From Candidatus Fimivivens faecavium (GTDB taxonomy: Bacteria; Bacillota; Clostridia; Oscillospirales; Ruminococcaceae): 64,000 nt of DNA. Both the position numbers and the translations under genes were made by a program. The DNA is taken from positions 1,225 to 65,224 of the forward strand of contig DVKH01000012.1 in the NCBI GenBank assembly GCA_018716105.1, written 5' to 3'. Below the pieces are notes generated by a model. It did not search any database, was not told the origin of the DNA, and saw only the letters and a program-made list of their open reading frames with translations. Below, one piece after another: positions 20,442-23,195 of the stretch. Each line of letters starts with the position of its first letter. Position 1 is the first letter of the stretch.

Positions 20442-20663
20442 TCACACCATGATTTTGCTGGCCATGACCCTGCTCAGGGCCACGCGGGCGCCCTTGACAT
20501 TGACGATCAGGTTCCCCCCCAGCTCCGAAACCACCGTCACATCGCCGCCTTCCACAAAGCCCAGGCTCAGGAGGAAGCTCCGCGCCTCGTCCTTCCCAAC
20601 GACCTGTTTCACAGACGCCGTTTCGCCAATCTGCGTCATTGTTAACGGCTGAATAGAAACCAC
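20442..20663 (-). CDS. feoA: FeoA-family (SH3-like) small protein, with no FeoB nearby
   Basis: 73 aa; PLTMTQIGETASVKQVVGKDEARSFLLSLGFVEGGDVTVVSELGGNLIVNVKGARVALSRVMASKIMV fits the FeoA domain pattern. Confidence 0.8.
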   Translation of the reverse strand: MVSIQPLTMTQIGETASVKQVVGKDEARSFLLSLGFVEGGDVTVVSELGGNLIVNVKGARVALSRVMASKIMV

Positions 20664-20703
20664 CTTCCTTTTGTTCCCGTCAATCTTCGCCGCCTCAGGT
20701 TAG

Positions 20704-20721
20704 AGTTAGAATATACTAACT
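20704..20721. promoter_or_regulatory. iron-box-like palindrome AGTTAG-AATATA-CTAACT just downstream of the feoA promoter
   Basis: Read directly; the arms are exact reverse complements. Confidence 0.55.
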
Positions 20722-20733
20722 TCTTTTGGCCAC

Positions 20734-20762
20734 AGTTTAATACTGCTAACTAATTTTGTCAA
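20734..20762 (-). promoter_or_regulatory. feoA promoter TTGACA-17-TAAACT with a TTAGTTAGC half-site in the spacer
   Basis: Minus-strand hexamers (plus-strand TGTCAA 20757-20762, AGTTTA 20734-20739). Confidence 0.45.
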
Positions 20763-20898
20763 TGATCTCGAAAACATCTTTTCACGCCTTGTGCGGAAAA
20801 TAGATATATGATAGAATAGGGAAAATTTGAACGGCTTTATTTTGTGTAGAACGGCACAAATTGTTTCTTTCGGCTAACAGTTTCGGGAGGTATTCTGC

Positions 20899-21276
20899 GT
20901 GAAGATTTATGAATCGGCCGAGGATTATCTTGAGTCCATTTTGGTTTTGAAAAAAGAAAAGGGCGCGGTCCGCTCCATAGACATCGCCCATCATTTCAAT
21001 TATTCGAAGCCCAGCGTCAGCCGTGCAATGAGCCTATTGCGCAGGAACGGGTATATCGTCATGGATCAGGAGGGCTGGATCACCCTCACCGAGACGGGGC
21101 TTGCCGTCGCGGAGCGCATCTATGAGCGGCATCGCTGCCTCACCGACTGGCTGATCGCGCTCGGCGTCACGCCCGACGTCGCGGCAAAGGACGCATGCCG
21201 GATCGAACACGATATCAGCGAAGAGACCTTTCAGAAATTTAAAGAACACGCCGGCCGGAAATCCAATGCAGAATAA
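20899..21276 (+). CDS. DtxR/MntR-family metal-dependent transcriptional regulator (two-domain form, no SH3 domain)
   Basis: 125 aa; ESAEDYLESILVLKKEKGAVRSIDIAHHFNYSKPSVSRAMSLLRRNGYI winged HTH, with ERHRCLTDWL and DACRIEHDIS (CxxEH) metal-ligand positions. GTG start with a GGGAGG RBS. Confidence 0.85.
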   Translation: MKIYESAEDYLESILVLKKEKGAVRSIDIAHHFNYSKPSVSRAMSLLRRNGYIVMDQEGWITLTETGLAVAERIYERHRCLTDWLIALGVTPDVAAKDACRIEHDISEETFQKFKEHAGRKSNAE

Positions 21277-21384
21277 ACGCGCGGCCGCTTCTTGAGGGCC
21301 GGCTCAAATCAGCCGGCGACGCCGCGCTGCAATCCCCTTTGCTGCTGTCGGGCGGCCTGCGGCCATGACCAATCATTTTTATTG

Positions 21385-21413
21385 AGAAAACCGCTTGACA
21401 AGATAGTTAGCAT
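21385..21413 (+). promoter_or_regulatory. promoter TTGACA-17-TAATAT for DUF3793-flavodoxin
   Basis: Hexamers at 21385-21390 and 21408-21413. Confidence 0.5.
21397..21410. promoter_or_regulatory. perfect 14-bp palindrome TTAGCATATGCTAA inside the promoter spacer/-10
   Basis: Read directly. It occupies the spacer and overlaps the -10. Confidence 0.6.
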
Positions 21414-21481
21414 ATGCTAATATGATTTCAGTTTCCAAAATCAATCAGCAAAAGGCTTCGCGCCTTTTCTTTTTCCCCAAA

Positions 21482-21499
21482 GGTTAGCTTCAGCTAACC
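21482..21499. promoter_or_regulatory. 18-bp palindrome GGTTAGC-TTCA-GCTAACC in the 5' UTR of the DUF3793 gene
   Basis: Read directly. The half-sites resemble the DtxR/IdeR iron box (TTAGGTTAGCCTAACCTAA). Confidence 0.6.
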
Positions 21500-21518
21500 A
21501 CAACTGAAAGGAGAGGTC

Positions 21519-22082
21519 ATGAAGAGCCGGCTGGAAGAAATCATCGCCTGCCACTGCGCCCCGGCGCTGGCGGGAATTAAACCCGCAAACCTGGTGTCCT
21601 GCCGCATCGAAGCGGATCCTTCACTGGAACAGGAACTCGAACAGCTCAACCGGCGCCTGAACGTGAACGGGATCCTCTTTCGCCCGGTCTGCCGGTGCAA
21701 AAACCGGCTTCTGCTGCTGGTCTACCGCAAGCGGACGCTGGAGCGGCACCTTGAAAACCCGCGCCTGACGCAGTATCTCCGCCGTGCGGGCTACCCGGAG
21801 GGGCCTTTGGAAGAACTCCTCCTTCATCTGGAATCCCGCCTCGCGGCGGGCGGAGAGGAATTCCCCCATGAAATCGGCATCTTTCTCGGCTATCCGCCGG
21901 AAGACGTCGAGGGTTTTCGCAGGGACCGCGGCAGGAACTGCAAATTCAGCGGCTATTGGAAGGTCTACGGGGACGCGGAACGCACAAAAGAGCTGTTCGC
22001 GCGGTACACCCGATGCCGGAACGCGCTGTTGGGCAAAGTGCAGGGCGGCCGCTCGATCGCCGACCTGTTCGGCGCCGCATAG
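21519..22082 (+). CDS. DUF3793-family protein
   Basis: 187 aa; ...HCAPALAGIKPANLVSC...FPHEIGIFLGYPPEDVEGF...GYWKVYGD matches my recollection of DUF3793. This family is commonly paired with flavodoxin in Clostridia. Confidence 0.7.
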   Translation: MKSRLEEIIACHCAPALAGIKPANLVSCRIEADPSLEQELEQLNRRLNVNGILFRPVCRCKNRLLLLVYRKRTLERHLENPRLTQYLRRAGYPEGPLEELLLHLESRLAAGGEEFPHEIGIFLGYPPEDVEGFRRDRGRNCKFSGYWKVYGDAERTKELFARYTRCRNALLGKVQGGRSIADLFGAA

Positions 22083-22111
22083 ACCAACACTCATTTCCAG
22101 GGAGGTAACCT

Positions 22112-22540
22112 ATGAAAATCGCAGTCATCTACTGGACCCAAACCGGCAATACCGGAGCGATGGCCAGCGCCGTCGCCGAGGGCGCGCGCGAGGCCGGGGC
22201 AGAACTCGACCTGCTCACCGTTTCTGAAACAAGCGCCTGCGCCGCGGCCGGTTACGACCGTCTCGCGCTGGGCTGTCCCGCTATGGGCGCGGAAGTGCTG
22301 GAGGAAGGCGAATTCGAACCGTTTTTCACCGAGCTTGAACCGCGCCTTTCCGGCAAAACGGTCGCCCTGTTCGGTTCCTACGGCTGGGGCGACGGCGAAT
22401 GGATGCGCCAGTGGCAGGACAGGACGCTGTCCGCAGGGGCTTCCATCGTCGGCGGCGAAGGTCTGATCGCAAACGAAACGCCCGACGAAGACGCGCTTGC
22501 AGCCTGCCGGGAGCTTGGCCGGAAACTTGCCGCCGGCTGA
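22112..22540 (+). CDS. fldA: short-chain flavodoxin
   Basis: 142 aa; MKIAVIYWTQTGNTGAMA FMN-phosphate loop and GSYGWGDGEWM. Confidence 0.9.
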   Translation: MKIAVIYWTQTGNTGAMASAVAEGAREAGAELDLLTVSETSACAAAGYDRLALGCPAMGAEVLEEGEFEPFFTELEPRLSGKTVALFGSYGWGDGEWMRQWQDRTLSAGASIVGGEGLIANETPDEDALAACRELGRKLAAG

Positions 22541-22594
22541 CCGGATGAAAGGGGCGCCCTGACTTCGGCCGTCCTTCAACATGATATCCTTCTT

Positions 22595-22618
22595 CGAGGG
22601 GAGCCATGTCCCCTCTTT
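22595..22618 (+). terminator. terminator after flavodoxin
   Basis: GAGGGGA-loop-TCCCCTC followed by TTTG. A second GC hairpin lies at about 22629-22663. Confidence 0.5.
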
Positions 22619-22681
22619 GTCCCCTCCTGGCGCGCACAGCCAAGCCCGTTGGCCGTGCGCGCCCTCTCGTATCTTCCGCGG

Positions 22682-22710
22682 TTGACAGGCGGGCCGGCCC
22701 GTGATACTAT
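22682..22710 (+). promoter_or_regulatory. promoter TTGACA-17-TACTAT for the second regulator
   Basis: Hexamers at 22682-22687 and 22705-22710. Confidence 0.5.
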
Positions 22711-22713
22711 AAA

Positions 22714-22727
22714 TTAGCTAAAGCTAA
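22714..22727. promoter_or_regulatory. 14-bp palindrome TTAGCT-AA-AGCTAA at the predicted transcription start
   Basis: Read directly, 4 nt downstream of the -10. Confidence 0.6.
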
Positions 22728-22808
22728 CCATTGCGCAGTTATGGATCGTATTTCGCGCAGGAGCGCCTCCTGTGCTGTTTTCCGCGCCAATCCGAAGGAG
22801 GGCCGGCC

Positions 22809-23195
22809 ATGCTTTCCAGTTCATCCATCCGCTACCTGCTTGCAATATACGAGCTTTCTGACGGCGGCGCCGCCGTCCGTTCCGTCGATGTCTCAAGGGT
22901 CCTTGGGGTGTCGAGGGCCAGCGTGGTCAAAGGCCTGAAAAAGCTTGCGGCGCAGGAGCTGATCCGCAAAGAATATTACGGAAATATTCAGCTCACCCCG
23001 CTCGGCGTCCGGGAATCCAACCGCATCTTTACCGAATACACGCTGCTGCATGCTTATTTTTCGAATTGCGCGGGCTTCTCCCCGGAAAATGCGCGCGCGG
23101 ACGCGATTTCCGCCCTCTGCGCTTTTTCTGCCGAGGGGAAGGAGGCCCTGATGCAGCGGGCGCTGCGCGCCGCCTCGGACGGAGCCAGCCCATAA
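22809..23195 (+). CDS. DtxR-family-like regulator paralog with degenerate metal-ligand positions
   Basis: 128 aa; IRYLLAIYELSDGGAAVRSVDVSRVLGVSRASVVKGLKKLAAQELI HTH is colinear with the 20899 protein, but the CxxEH block is replaced by ISALCAFSAEG. Confidence 0.65.
   Translation: MLSSSSIRYLLAIYELSDGGAAVRSVDVSRVLGVSRASVVKGLKKLAAQELIRKEYYGNIQLTPLGVRESNRIFTEYTLLHAYFSNCAGFSPENARADAISALCAFSAEGKEALMQRALRAASDGASP

What the first reader, a model, noticed from the sequence alone, without database searches (positions are those of the whole stretch)
20442..23195. The cargo is an iron-sparing module (flavodoxin, DUF3793, FeoA, two DtxR-type regulators) rather than phage genes, and sits next to the Fe-S-hungry hydEFG operon
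Known intervening elements are degenerate prophages. This one carries only a self-contained metal-response unit. It has a flavodoxin, which classically replaces ferredoxin under iron limitation, together with its frequent partner DUF3793. It also has an orphan FeoA and its own regulators. The element lies about 350 bp from the divergent [FeFe]-hydrogenase maturase operon, whose products and clients depend on ferredoxin/flavodoxin-type carriers. If the element excises, the cell loses its flavodoxin module and regains the ATPase. If it stays, the reverse holds. That coupling of a physiological module to a genetic switch would be new.
Basis: inference. Interest (0 to 1): 0.6.

Follow-up and report, generated by a model that had tools for sequence, protein, structure and literature searches.

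The report
Iron-regulated cargo in sporulation-gene intervening element
A 4.75-kb recombinase element that splits a spore-maturation ATPase gene carries part of the cell's iron-response genes, including its only flavodoxin, but it is one of a large family of elements that sit at the same codon with unrelated cargo and probably excise only in the dying mother cell, so it is not an iron/ATPase switch.

Summary
Between the two halves of a split P-loop ATPase gene lie FeoA, a full DtxR/MntR-type regulator, DUF3793, a short-chain flavodoxin, a second DtxR-like protein with only the DNA-binding domain, a 45-aa ORF and a large serine recombinase. No cargo protein matches a phage family.

Three sigma-70-like promoters are each overlapped by a GTTAG-N6-CTAAC palindrome. 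The same box precedes a chromosomal feoAB operon, and DUF3793-flavodoxin and feoA operons in other genomes. An iron-type regulon is therefore plausible. This flavodoxin is the only free-standing one in the genome.

- The split gene belongs to the PRK06851 "dual-wield NTPase" family. Its C. difficile member CD3298 is needed for Ca-DPA loading of spores.
- Related recombinases in 80 species mostly abut the same gene, broken at the same His codon, with unrelated cargo.
- A sigma-E-like promoter precedes the small ORF and recombinase in 45 of 75 loci (0.7% background).
- hydEFG adjacency occurs in no relative.
- The same iron genes also occur in ordinary chromosomal contexts elsewhere.

Best reading: a skin/gin-type, mother-cell-excised intervening element that captured a piece of the host iron regulon. 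It is a new member of a known kind.

The parts
19974..20257 (+). N-terminal fragment (94 codons plus 2 nt) of a PRK06851-family 'dual-wield' NTPase gene. It carries the Walker A motif GTPGNGKST. Unexcised, the frame runs on into the element and stops at 20363.
   Evidence: The joined 369-aa protein matches NF005320 over its full length (E 1e-49). It is collinear with the intact homologue of G008 across DGTxPH.
20240..20283 (.). attL. The gene side is GTTGATGGAACGCCGCCCCA. The element's left arm is GGAAGGCGCGCCGTATATCAATA. The shared crossover core is CCCA.
   Evidence: The left and right arms are imperfect inverted repeats. All family members break at CCC|CAY.
20442..20663 (-). Orphan FeoA. 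It is a likely leftover of a feoAB operon that related elements still carry.
   Evidence: Pfam PF04023, 58 bits. The L023 and L069 elements carry feoA-feoB. There is no feoB in this element. Three chromosomal feoAB loci exist.
20705..20762 (-). feoA promoter (TTGACA-17-TAAACT, 20762-20734) with the operator-like palindrome GTTAGAATATACTAAC (20705-20720).
20899..21276 (+). DtxR/MntR-family metalloregulator with both the DNA-binding and the metal-binding/dimerisation domains.
   Evidence: It is 72% identical to the regulator in the Anaerotruncus massiliensis element. A 54% paralogue lies on contig C7.
21395..21501 (+). DUF3793-flavodoxin promoter (TTGACA-17-TAATAT) with two palindromes, GTTAGCATATGCTAAT (21406-21421) and GGTTAGCTTCAGCTAACC (21482-21499).
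   Evidence: Two or three copies of the same box stand upstream of DUF3793 in L101-L106.
21519..22082 (+). DUF3793 protein, function unknown. It is single-copy in the genome and co-operonic with the flavodoxin gene.
   Evidence: Pfam, 189 bits. The AF2 model has pLDDT 95.5 and no PDB fold match. Conserved His and Cys positions: H12, C13, C60, H117, C166.
22112..22540 (+). Short-chain flavodoxin, the only free-standing flavodoxin in the genome.
   Evidence: TIGR01753, 142 bits against a cut-off of 123. Genome scans with PF00258, PF12641 and PF12682. The only other hit is a flavodiiron protein.
22682..22731 (+). Promoter of the second regulator (TTGACA-17-TACTAT) followed by the palindrome TTAGCTAAAGCTAACC (22714-22729).
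22806..23195 (+). Second DtxR-like protein. Only the N-terminal winged-helix domain is recognised. It is followed by a strong terminator hairpin at 23207-23245.
   Evidence: inverted repeat I25. A 50% homologue follows DUF3793-flavodoxin in a chromosomal context in L105.
23262..23291 (+). Sigma-E-like promoter AATAC-N17-CATAGAGT in front of the small ORF.
   Evidence: A two-box CATAt-N16/17-CATAnnnT motif plus RBS and start codon occurs in 45 of 75 related loci, against 0.7% of background windows.
23308..23445 (+). 45-aa ORF coupled to the recombinase gene. It is a candidate recombination directionality factor.
   Evidence: A small ORF with the motif MKxTVFxVTExF...ERKxxLQxxVDRYL stands just upstream of the recombinase in most of the 80 loci. 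dN/dS is 0.07 against the sister lineage.
23442..24980 (+). Large serine recombinase with Resolvase, Recombinase and Zn-ribbon domains.
   Evidence: phrog_95, E 4e-96. It is 45-54% identical to 80 species' recombinases that sit in the same gene.
24985..25011 (.). attR. The element's right arm is GTTGATGCGCGGAACGCTTTCCCA, ending in the CCCA core.
25012..25837 (+). C-terminal fragment (275 codons) of the same NTPase gene. It has no start codon of its own.
   Evidence: dN/dS is 0.14 against the sister lineage, with the same dS as the flanking citF and citE.

Best explanation
The region is the cargo of a skin/gin-type gene-intervening element of about 4.75 kb (20258-25011). The element sits in the His95 codon of a sporulation gene. 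That gene encodes a PRK06851 'dual-wield' NTPase, the family of C. difficile CD3298, which is needed for Ca-DPA loading of spores.

Cargo and recombination module are separate units.

Cargo. There are four transcription units: feoA, dtxR1, DUF3793-flavodoxin and dtxR2. Three of them (feoA, DUF3793-flavodoxin, dtxR2) have a sigma-70-type promoter overlapped by a GTTAG-N6-CTAAC operator. I infer that the DtxR-family regulators repress these units when metal is plentiful and release them under iron limitation. The cell would then make flavodoxin as a low-iron electron carrier. This is a captured piece of a regulon that is chromosomal in other Oscillospirales and that also includes this genome's chromosomal feoAB.

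Recombination module. A terminator separates it from the cargo. It consists of a sigma-E-like promoter, a 45-aa candidate directionality factor and a large serine recombinase. I infer that it fires in the mother cell during sporulation, recombines attL with attR at the CCCA core, and rebuilds the NTPase gene in frame. The forespore chromosome keeps the element, so the lineage never trades the flavodoxin module for the ATPase.

Shown here: gene content; element boundaries; in-frame reconstitution; family-wide use of the same target codon with variable cargo; promoter and operator motifs and their conservation; purifying selection; co-divergence with the chromosome.

Inferred: the timing and cell type of excision; the role of the small ORF; which metal is sensed; the physiological role of DUF3793-flavodoxin.
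For: 1. Joining the two fragments gives a 369-aa protein that matches NF005320 (PRK06851.1-6) over its full length. It is collinear with intact homologues across DGTxPH.
2. PRK06851 is the dwNTPase family, which includes CD3298 (PMC10949312). Spores of a cd3298 deletion mutant lack Ca-DPA (PMC10449524).
3. The genome has spoIVA and spo0A.
4. Of 80 species' loci with a 45-54% identical recombinase, about 70 hold a fragment of this gene, always broken at residue 94/95. In 62 the fragment directly abuts the recombinase gene.
5. Seventeen complete elements of 4.5-11 kb carry unrelated cargo. Examples are feoAB, MerR/ECF, a glycyl-radical enzyme, a P-type ATPase, flagellin and RT/RecQ.
6. A conserved small ORF and a two-box CATAt-N16/17-CATAnnnT promoter precede the recombinase in 45 of 75 loci, against 0.7% of background windows. 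The motif matches the sigma-E consensus as I recall it. skinCd sets the precedent of a sigma-E-driven directionality factor (PMC5025042).
7. Against a sister lineage at 91% nucleotide identity, dS is 0.19-0.26 for flavodoxin, dtxR2, the recombinase, the ATPase C-fragment and the flanking citF/citE alike. The short sORF (37 codons) gives dS 0.54. dN/dS is 0.07-0.20 throughout, including the C-fragment, which cannot be translated without excision.
8. Operators: four of the genome's seven TTAG-N6-CTAA sites lie in the cargo promoter regions and one lies upstream of chromosomal feoAB. The same boxes stand upstream of DUF3793-flavodoxin and feoA in L101-L106.
9. The cargo has no phage-family hits.
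Against: - No direct evidence of excision.
- The sigma-E assignment rests on a consensus match. In this element the -35 box (AATAC) is weaker than in most relatives.
- Upstream of the ATPase gene itself the only scanner hit is a weak sigma-70-like site. The conserved motif in this clade, GAATAC-CATGnnGTAA, cannot be assigned to a sigma factor.
- Membership in the CD3298 family is at family level only: 169 bits, far below the equivalog cut-off of 556.
- The metal sensed is unresolved. The best NCBIfam matches of both regulators are to MntR models and fall below their cut-offs. The operator spacing differs from the classical DtxR/IdeR box as I recall it.
- The organism has not been shown to sporulate.
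Confidence: 0.7

Rival explanations
1. The element is a reversible physiological switch: a cell either keeps the flavodoxin/iron module or regains the ATPase. The module is functionally tied to the neighbouring hydEFG operon.
For: The flavodoxin is the genome's only free-standing one. It would leave the chromosome on excision. HydE and HydG are radical-SAM enzymes that need a low-potential reductant (general knowledge). The hyd operon starts about 640 bp from the element's left end.
Against: - hydF is never near the ATPase gene in 12 relatives that have both. No hyd gene lies within 10 kb in the 80 element loci.
- The same codon holds unrelated cargo in other genera.
- The target is a sporulation gene, and the recombinase operon carries a sigma-E-like promoter. 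Excision is therefore expected in a terminal cell.
- Element and flanks show equal dS, which argues for stable vertical retention and against frequent loss.
Confidence: 0.05
2. An ordinary integrative mobile element of the IME or genomic-island type. It uses a conserved coding motif as attB and moves horizontally. It excises and integrates in vegetative cells and has no developmental role. The cargo is accessory genes along for the ride.
For: Cargo varies widely. Some relatives carry extra tyrosine integrases or defence-like genes. Elements occur in both orientations among closely related recombinases: 32 of type A and 28 of type B. Large serine recombinases are typical of such elements.
Against: - Target choice is a sporulation gene in about 70 of 80 loci.
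- A sigma-E-like promoter is conserved in front of the recombinase operon.
- dS equals that of the chromosomal flanks, and the same cargo is present in a sister lineage.
- The split gene's C-fragment is under purifying selection (dN/dS 0.14), so it must be rejoined in the host.
- No transfer or mobilisation gene was found among this element's ORFs.
Confidence: 0.13
3. A fixed, decayed insertion. The ATPase gene is a dead pseudogene, the recombinase no longer acts, and the iron genes are now a plain chromosomal island.
For: No excised form has been observed. feoB has been lost from the element. The second regulator lacks a recognisable metal-binding domain.
Against: - Both ATPase fragments are intact and collinear with intact homologues.
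- dN/dS is 0.14 for the C-fragment, 0.20 for the recombinase and 0.07 for the small ORF.
- The recombinase keeps all three domains.
- The inverted-repeat arms and the CCCA core are intact.
Confidence: 0.08

Closest known systems
gin element in gerE of Bacillus cereus ATCC 10987 (GirC recombinase plus small factor GirX; PMC5595907)
   Same: A small element without phage genes that interrupts a sporulation gene. It carries a site-specific recombinase and a small accessory factor. Recombination occurs at a short shared core and rebuilds the gene during sporulation.
   Different: The target gene differs (a PRK06851/CD3298-family NTPase, not gerE) and so does the host clade (Oscillospirales). There is one recombinase here, not three. 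The cargo is a metal-regulated module. Excision here is only inferred.
skin elements in sigK (B. subtilis SpoIVCA; C. difficile CD1231 with the directionality factor CD1234; PMC5025042)
   Same: A large serine recombinase inside an element that splits a mother-cell sporulation gene. Sigma-E control of the recombinase or its directionality factor restricts excision to the mother cell. B. subtilis skin also carries a self-regulated metal(loid) module, the ars operon with ArsR (PMC12607644).
   Different: skin is a prophage remnant of about 14-48 kb. This element is 4.75 kb and has no phage genes. Here the small ORF and the recombinase appear to share one sigma-E-like promoter. In C. difficile the recombinase is made constitutively and only the directionality factor is sigma-E dependent.
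Iron-limitation flavodoxin responses, in which flavodoxin replaces ferredoxin, under Fur or DtxR-type repressors (general knowledge, not checked in a paper here)
   Same: A short-chain flavodoxin stands behind an operator-overlapped promoter. It is linked in several genomes to feoAB and DtxR-family regulators.
   Different: No regulation has been measured. The operator is GTTAG-N6-CTAAC, not the classical 19-bp DtxR/IdeR box. The flavodoxin gene always follows the uncharacterised DUF3793 gene. In this genus the genes ride on an intervening element.

Membership tests
Sporulation gene-intervening elements (skin, SPbeta/spsM, vfbin, vrin, gin, yin) | Interrupts a sporulation-specific gene | tested here: met
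   The joined protein matches PRK06851.1-6 over its full length. The family equals the dwNTPases, which include CD3298. CD3298 is required for spore Ca-DPA. This is family-level homology only, far below the equivalog cut-off.
Sporulation gene-intervening elements (skin, SPbeta/spsM, vfbin, vrin, gin, yin) | Carries its own site-specific recombinase, and short identical cores at both ends allow precise in-frame rejoining | tested here: met
   A large serine recombinase lies at 23442-24980. The CCCA core is present at both ends. The joined frame is collinear with intact homologues.
Sporulation gene-intervening elements (skin, SPbeta/spsM, vfbin, vrin, gin, yin) | Excision is sporulation-specific and confined to the mother cell | not testable with these tools
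   The evidence is indirect only: a conserved sigma-E-like promoter, purifying selection on the C-fragment, and spoIVA and spo0A in the genome.
Sporulation gene-intervening elements (skin, SPbeta/spsM, vfbin, vrin, gin, yin) | A small recombination directionality factor | tested here: inconclusive
   A conserved ORF of about 40 aa stands immediately upstream of the recombinase in most of the 80 loci. Its dN/dS is 0.07. No family hit and no functional test.
Large serine recombinases | Resolvase catalytic domain with an N-terminal Ser, plus Recombinase and Zn-ribbon domains | tested here: met
   PF00239, PF07508 and PF13408 all score above their cut-offs. The motif AIYCRLSRED with Ser13 is present. 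phrog_95, E 4e-96.
Degenerate prophage | Phage structural, lysis, replication or regulatory genes | tested here: not met
   PHROGs gives no hit for FeoA, DUF3793, flavodoxin, DtxR2 or the small ORF. DtxR1 gives only a weak generic-regulator hit.
Short-chain flavodoxin (TIGR01753) | Score above the equivalog cut-off, and an FMN phosphate loop T/S-x-T-G-x-T | tested here: met
   142 bits against a cut-off of 123. The sequence reads YWTQTGNTGAMA.
DtxR/MntR metalloregulators | An N-terminal winged-helix domain plus a metal-binding/dimerisation domain | tested here: met
   Regulator 1 matches PF01325 (41.6 bits) and PF02742 (51 bits), both above their cut-offs. The metal sensed is not determined.
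DtxR/MntR metalloregulators | The same two domains in the second regulator (22806-23195) | tested here: not met
   Only PF01325 is recognised (38.8 bits). There is no hit to the metal-binding domain. It works like a DtxR-type DNA binder but cannot be filed as a full member.
Feo ferrous-iron uptake system | FeoA encoded together with FeoB | tested here: not met
   FeoA is present, but the element has no feoB. feoB is present in related elements L023 and L069 and at three chromosomal loci, each with its own feoA.

The most novel reading that the evidence does not exclude
Carrying the cell's only flavodoxin and part of its iron regulon on a mother-cell-excised element could have a function. Excision at the sigma-E stage would uncouple these genes from the chromosome in the mother cell alone. 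That could change dosage, topology or stability and so re-tune iron and electron-carrier economy during spore maturation. Alternatively, rare vegetative excision could create an iron-module-free subpopulation. Cargo choice in this element family would then not be neutral.
Probability: 0.06. Interest if true: 0.7.

Novelty: new member of a known kind. Interest (0 to 1): 0.45.

Why it matters
The proposed iron/ATPase switch is not what is here. The locus does show three things:
- A gene implicated in Ca-DPA loading of spores is a recurrent, codon-exact landing site for a large family of small, non-phage, cargo-carrying intervening elements in gut Oscillospirales. I found no paper describing this.
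- These elements can fix useful host genes. Here that includes the only flavodoxin and part of a DtxR-type regulon, with no risk of germ-line loss.
- The pairing of DUF3793 with flavodoxin behind a conserved GTTAG-N6-CTAAC operator, next to feoAB, gives a testable lead on an uncharacterised protein family and on iron regulation in a poorly studied clade.

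Tried and rejected
- An exact attL/attB half-site scan of metagenome contigs gave no hits.
- DUF3793 function from structure: the model is confident (pLDDT 95.5), but Foldseek against the PDB gave nothing with E below 0.001 and no TM-score above about 0.3. A literature search found one unrelated paper.
- hydEFG link: rejected from synteny.
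- Prophage origin: rejected.
- A second flavodoxin: none found with three Pfam models. The only other hit is a flavodiiron protein.
- Assigning a sigma factor to the ATPase gene's own promoter: Oscillospiraceae loci show CACA-N17-CATAGGCTGA. This clade shows GAATAC-CATGnnGTAA, which I could not assign.
- Iron versus manganese specificity from sequence: unresolved.
- Loci fetched from unnamed relatives' genomes could not be read in the Python box. They were read with the listing tools instead.

Full report
**What is at the coordinates**

The window is contig C42:1225-65224 of a 2.0-Mb, 98%-complete genome in 43 contigs.
- FeoA at 20442-20663 (-).
- A two-domain DtxR/MntR-type regulator at 20899-21276 (+).
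- DUF3793 at 21519-22082 (+).
- A short-chain flavodoxin at 22112-22540 (+). It scores 142 bits on TIGR01753 against a cut-off of 123.
- A second DtxR-like protein at 22806-23195 (+). Only its DNA-binding domain is recognised.

Downstream lie a 45-aa ORF (23308-23445) and a 512-aa large serine recombinase (23442-24980). The whole set is bracketed by the two halves of a P-loop ATPase gene, 19974-20257 and 25012-25837.

Joining the halves at a shared CCCA core gives an uninterrupted 369-aa protein. It reads ...VIVDGTPP-H-AVEPQY... and is collinear with an intact homologue in a relative...AIADGTSPHVIEPMF.... None of the cargo proteins matches a phage protein family; only the recombinase does.

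**What the split gene is**

The joined protein matches NCBIfam PRK06851.1-6 over its full length (E 1e-49). This is far below the equivalog cut-off, so membership holds at family level only. PRK06851 proteins are the "dual-wield NTPases". The family includes C. difficile CD3298 and is nearly confined to Bacilli and Clostridia (PMC10949312). Spores of a C. difficile cd3298 deletion mutant have essentially no Ca-DPA and are heat-sensitive (PMC10449524). The present genome has intact spoIVA and spo0A. The interrupted gene is therefore best read as a sporulation gene. That is the hallmark of skin-type intervening elements (PMC4191935, PMC5025042, PMC5595907).

**The element belongs to a large family at the same codon**

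Among 41 relatives, 29 have the ATPase gene and most have it intact. Three genera have it split at the same place.

A scan of one genome per species with a recombinase profile returned 80 loci with 45-54% identical recombinases. The hosts include Anaerotruncus, Ligaoa, Flavonifractor, Oscillibacter, Lawsonibacter, Flintibacter and others.
- About 70 of the 80 loci hold a fragment of this ATPase gene.
- The break is always at residue 94/95, that is CCC|CAY in the Pro-His codons of DGTxPH.
- In 62 of the 80 the fragment directly abuts the recombinase gene.

Seventeen complete elements measure 4.5-10.9 kb. Their cargo is unrelated from one to the next:
- MerR, an ECF transporter S component and an amidase (Ligaoa).
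- An amidohydrolase and a 2-hydroxyacid dehydrogenase.
- A glycyl-radical enzyme with its activase.
- A glycerate-kinase-like protein.
- A P-type ATPase.
- An SLH surface protein, PadR and an AAA ATPase.
- A tyrosine integrase.
- An RT-like protein with RecQ.
- A flagellin.

Non-phage cargo is thus the rule in this family, not a peculiarity of this locus.

**Evidence for developmental control**

Most loci have a small ORF of about 40 aa immediately upstream of the recombinase. Its recurring motif is MKxTVFxVTExF...ERKxxLQxxVDRYL.

In 45 of 75 usable loci this ORF is preceded by two boxes, CATAt-N16/17-CATAnnnT, followed by a ribosome-binding site and a start codon. The same pattern occurs in 0.7% of background windows from the same loci. 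The best examples, such as TTCATATT-N14-CATACAAT, fit the mother-cell sigma-E consensus as I recall it from the B. subtilis literature.

The present element has AATAC-N17-CATAGAGT at 23262-23291. A strong terminator hairpin at 23207-23245 separates this unit from the cargo.

In C. difficile skin, a sigma-E-dependent small directionality factor is what confines excision to the mother cell (PMC5025042). The same logic is the simplest reading here. It remains an inference, because no excised form could be looked for.

**Evidence that the element is maintained and the gene is rejoined**

A same-species contig carries the identical element. A sister lineage at 91% nucleotide identity carries flavodoxin, dtxR2, the small ORF, the recombinase and the ATPase C-fragment next to the same citFED genes.

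Between the two lineages:
- dS is 0.19-0.26 for flavodoxin, dtxR2, the recombinase, the ATPase C-fragment and the chromosomal citF and citE alike. The very short small ORF (37 codons compared) gives 0.54.
- dN/dS is 0.07-0.20 for all of them.

The element has therefore co-diverged with the chromosome. The C-fragment has no start codon of its own, yet it is under purifying selection (dN/dS 0.14). That argues the gene is reconstituted and used.

**What the cargo is**

Three sigma-70-like promoters match 10 of 12 consensus positions. They stand in front of feoA, DUF3793-flavodoxin and dtxR2. The region holds nine promoter-like sites against 1.6 expected.

Each promoter is overlapped or immediately followed by a GTTAG-N6-CTAAC palindrome. 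The looser pattern TTAG-N6-CTAA occurs only seven times in the whole genome. Four of those lie in 2 kb of cargo. A fifth lies about 25 bp upstream of the chromosomal feoA-feoB operon on contig C18.

The closest DUF3793 homologues (57-60% identical) sit in ordinary chromosomal contexts. Their neighbours are genes such as lepA-hemN, enolase or two-component systems. In each case DUF3793 is followed by a flavodoxin gene (64-73% identical). It is also flanked either by feoA-feoA-feoB and a FeoB-associated protein or by a DtxR2-like gene. Two or three copies of the same palindrome stand upstream of DUF3793 and of feoA. No recombinase lies within 6-8 kb.

The unit feoAB + DtxR-type regulators + DUF3793-flavodoxin is therefore a conserved regulon-like neighbourhood in this clade. 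The element has captured part of it.

Related elements in Anaerotruncus still carry feoB:
- A. massiliensis AT3: FeoB-associated protein, FeoB, FeoA, DtxR1, DtxR2, recombinase.
- Anaerotruncus sp. G3: DUF3793, FeoA, FeoA, FeoB, recombinase.

The orphan FeoA here is best read as what is left after feoB was lost. The genome has three chromosomal feoAB loci, each with its own feoA, and further DtxR-like regulators on C7 and C20.

Association with feoAB points to iron as the signal. Sequence alone does not settle iron against manganese: the best NCBIfam matches are to MntR models and fall below their cut-offs.

The flavodoxin is the only free-standing flavodoxin found with three Pfam models. The other PF00258 hit is a flavodiiron protein.

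DUF3793 gives a confident model (pLDDT 95.5) with no similar solved fold. It has conserved His and Cys positions. Its function stays open.

**Why the proposed switch and the hydEFG link fail**

- In 12 relatives that have both genes, hydF is on another contig or 2 Mb away from the ATPase gene.
- None of the 80 element loci has hydE, hydF or citF within 10 kb. The adjacency is peculiar to this genus.
- The target codon is shared by elements with unrelated cargo, so nothing ties iron genes to this ATPase.
- If excision is confined to the mother cell, as the target gene and the promoter suggest, the lineage never chooses between module and ATPase. Vegetative cells always have the module and do not need the ATPase. 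The forespore inherits the unexcised chromosome.
- Precedents already exist for a self-regulated metal module on an intervening element (the ars operon with ArsR on B. subtilis skin, PMC12607644) and for a non-phage intervening element (gin, PMC5595907).

**Verdict**

The "switch coupled to hydEFG" part is not.

The locus is a new member of the known class of sporulation gene-intervening elements. Its target gene and its element family do not appear in the literature I could search.

Noticed in passing
G001:C11:17269-17703 and 34385-34678 (relative genome, not the window): spoIVA matches in two pieces, profile positions 93-237 and 1-98. They lie about 16.7 kb apart on one contig. This looks like another intervening element, in spoIVA.
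   Followed up: no
Loci L021-L100: Related elements occupy the ATPase gene in both orientations. In 32 loci the recombinase 3' end abuts the C-fragment. In 28 it abuts the N-fragment on the opposite strand. In 2 the recombinase lies next to the N-fragment on the same strand. The types are intermixed among very close recombinases. The element ends are inverted repeats around CCC|CAY.
   Followed up: partly
window 21519-22082: DUF3793 folds confidently (pLDDT 95.5) but has no similar solved structure. Its invariant or near-invariant residues include H12, C13, C60, H117 and C166, which could form a metal or cofactor site.
   Followed up: partly
G000:C18:37568 and C18:20269: The cargo operator GGTTAG-N6-CTAACC also stands just upstream of the chromosomal feoA-feoB operon. 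A further copy lies at C18:20269, next to genes I did not identify.
   Followed up: partly
L014 (G013:C3) 2-7444: In another genus, DNA next to the ATPase C-fragment encodes a YD/RHS-repeat protein of more than 2,481 aa. The N-fragment is on another contig, so that element is much larger.
   Followed up: no
L040 and L059: Two related recombinase genes lie tail to tail within 2 kb. These may be nested or tandem elements.
   Followed up: no
window 19926-19973 and the equivalent regions of L021-L099: Upstream of the ATPase start, Oscillospiraceae loci share CACA-N17-CATAGGCTGA. This clade shares GAATAC-CATGnnGTAA. Both motifs are conserved. Neither was assigned to a sigma factor with confidence.
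   Followed up: partly
L103/L104, left ends: Two independent assemblies both break 200 bp beyond the FeoB-associated gene. This hints at a repeat or a variable boundary there.
   Followed up: no
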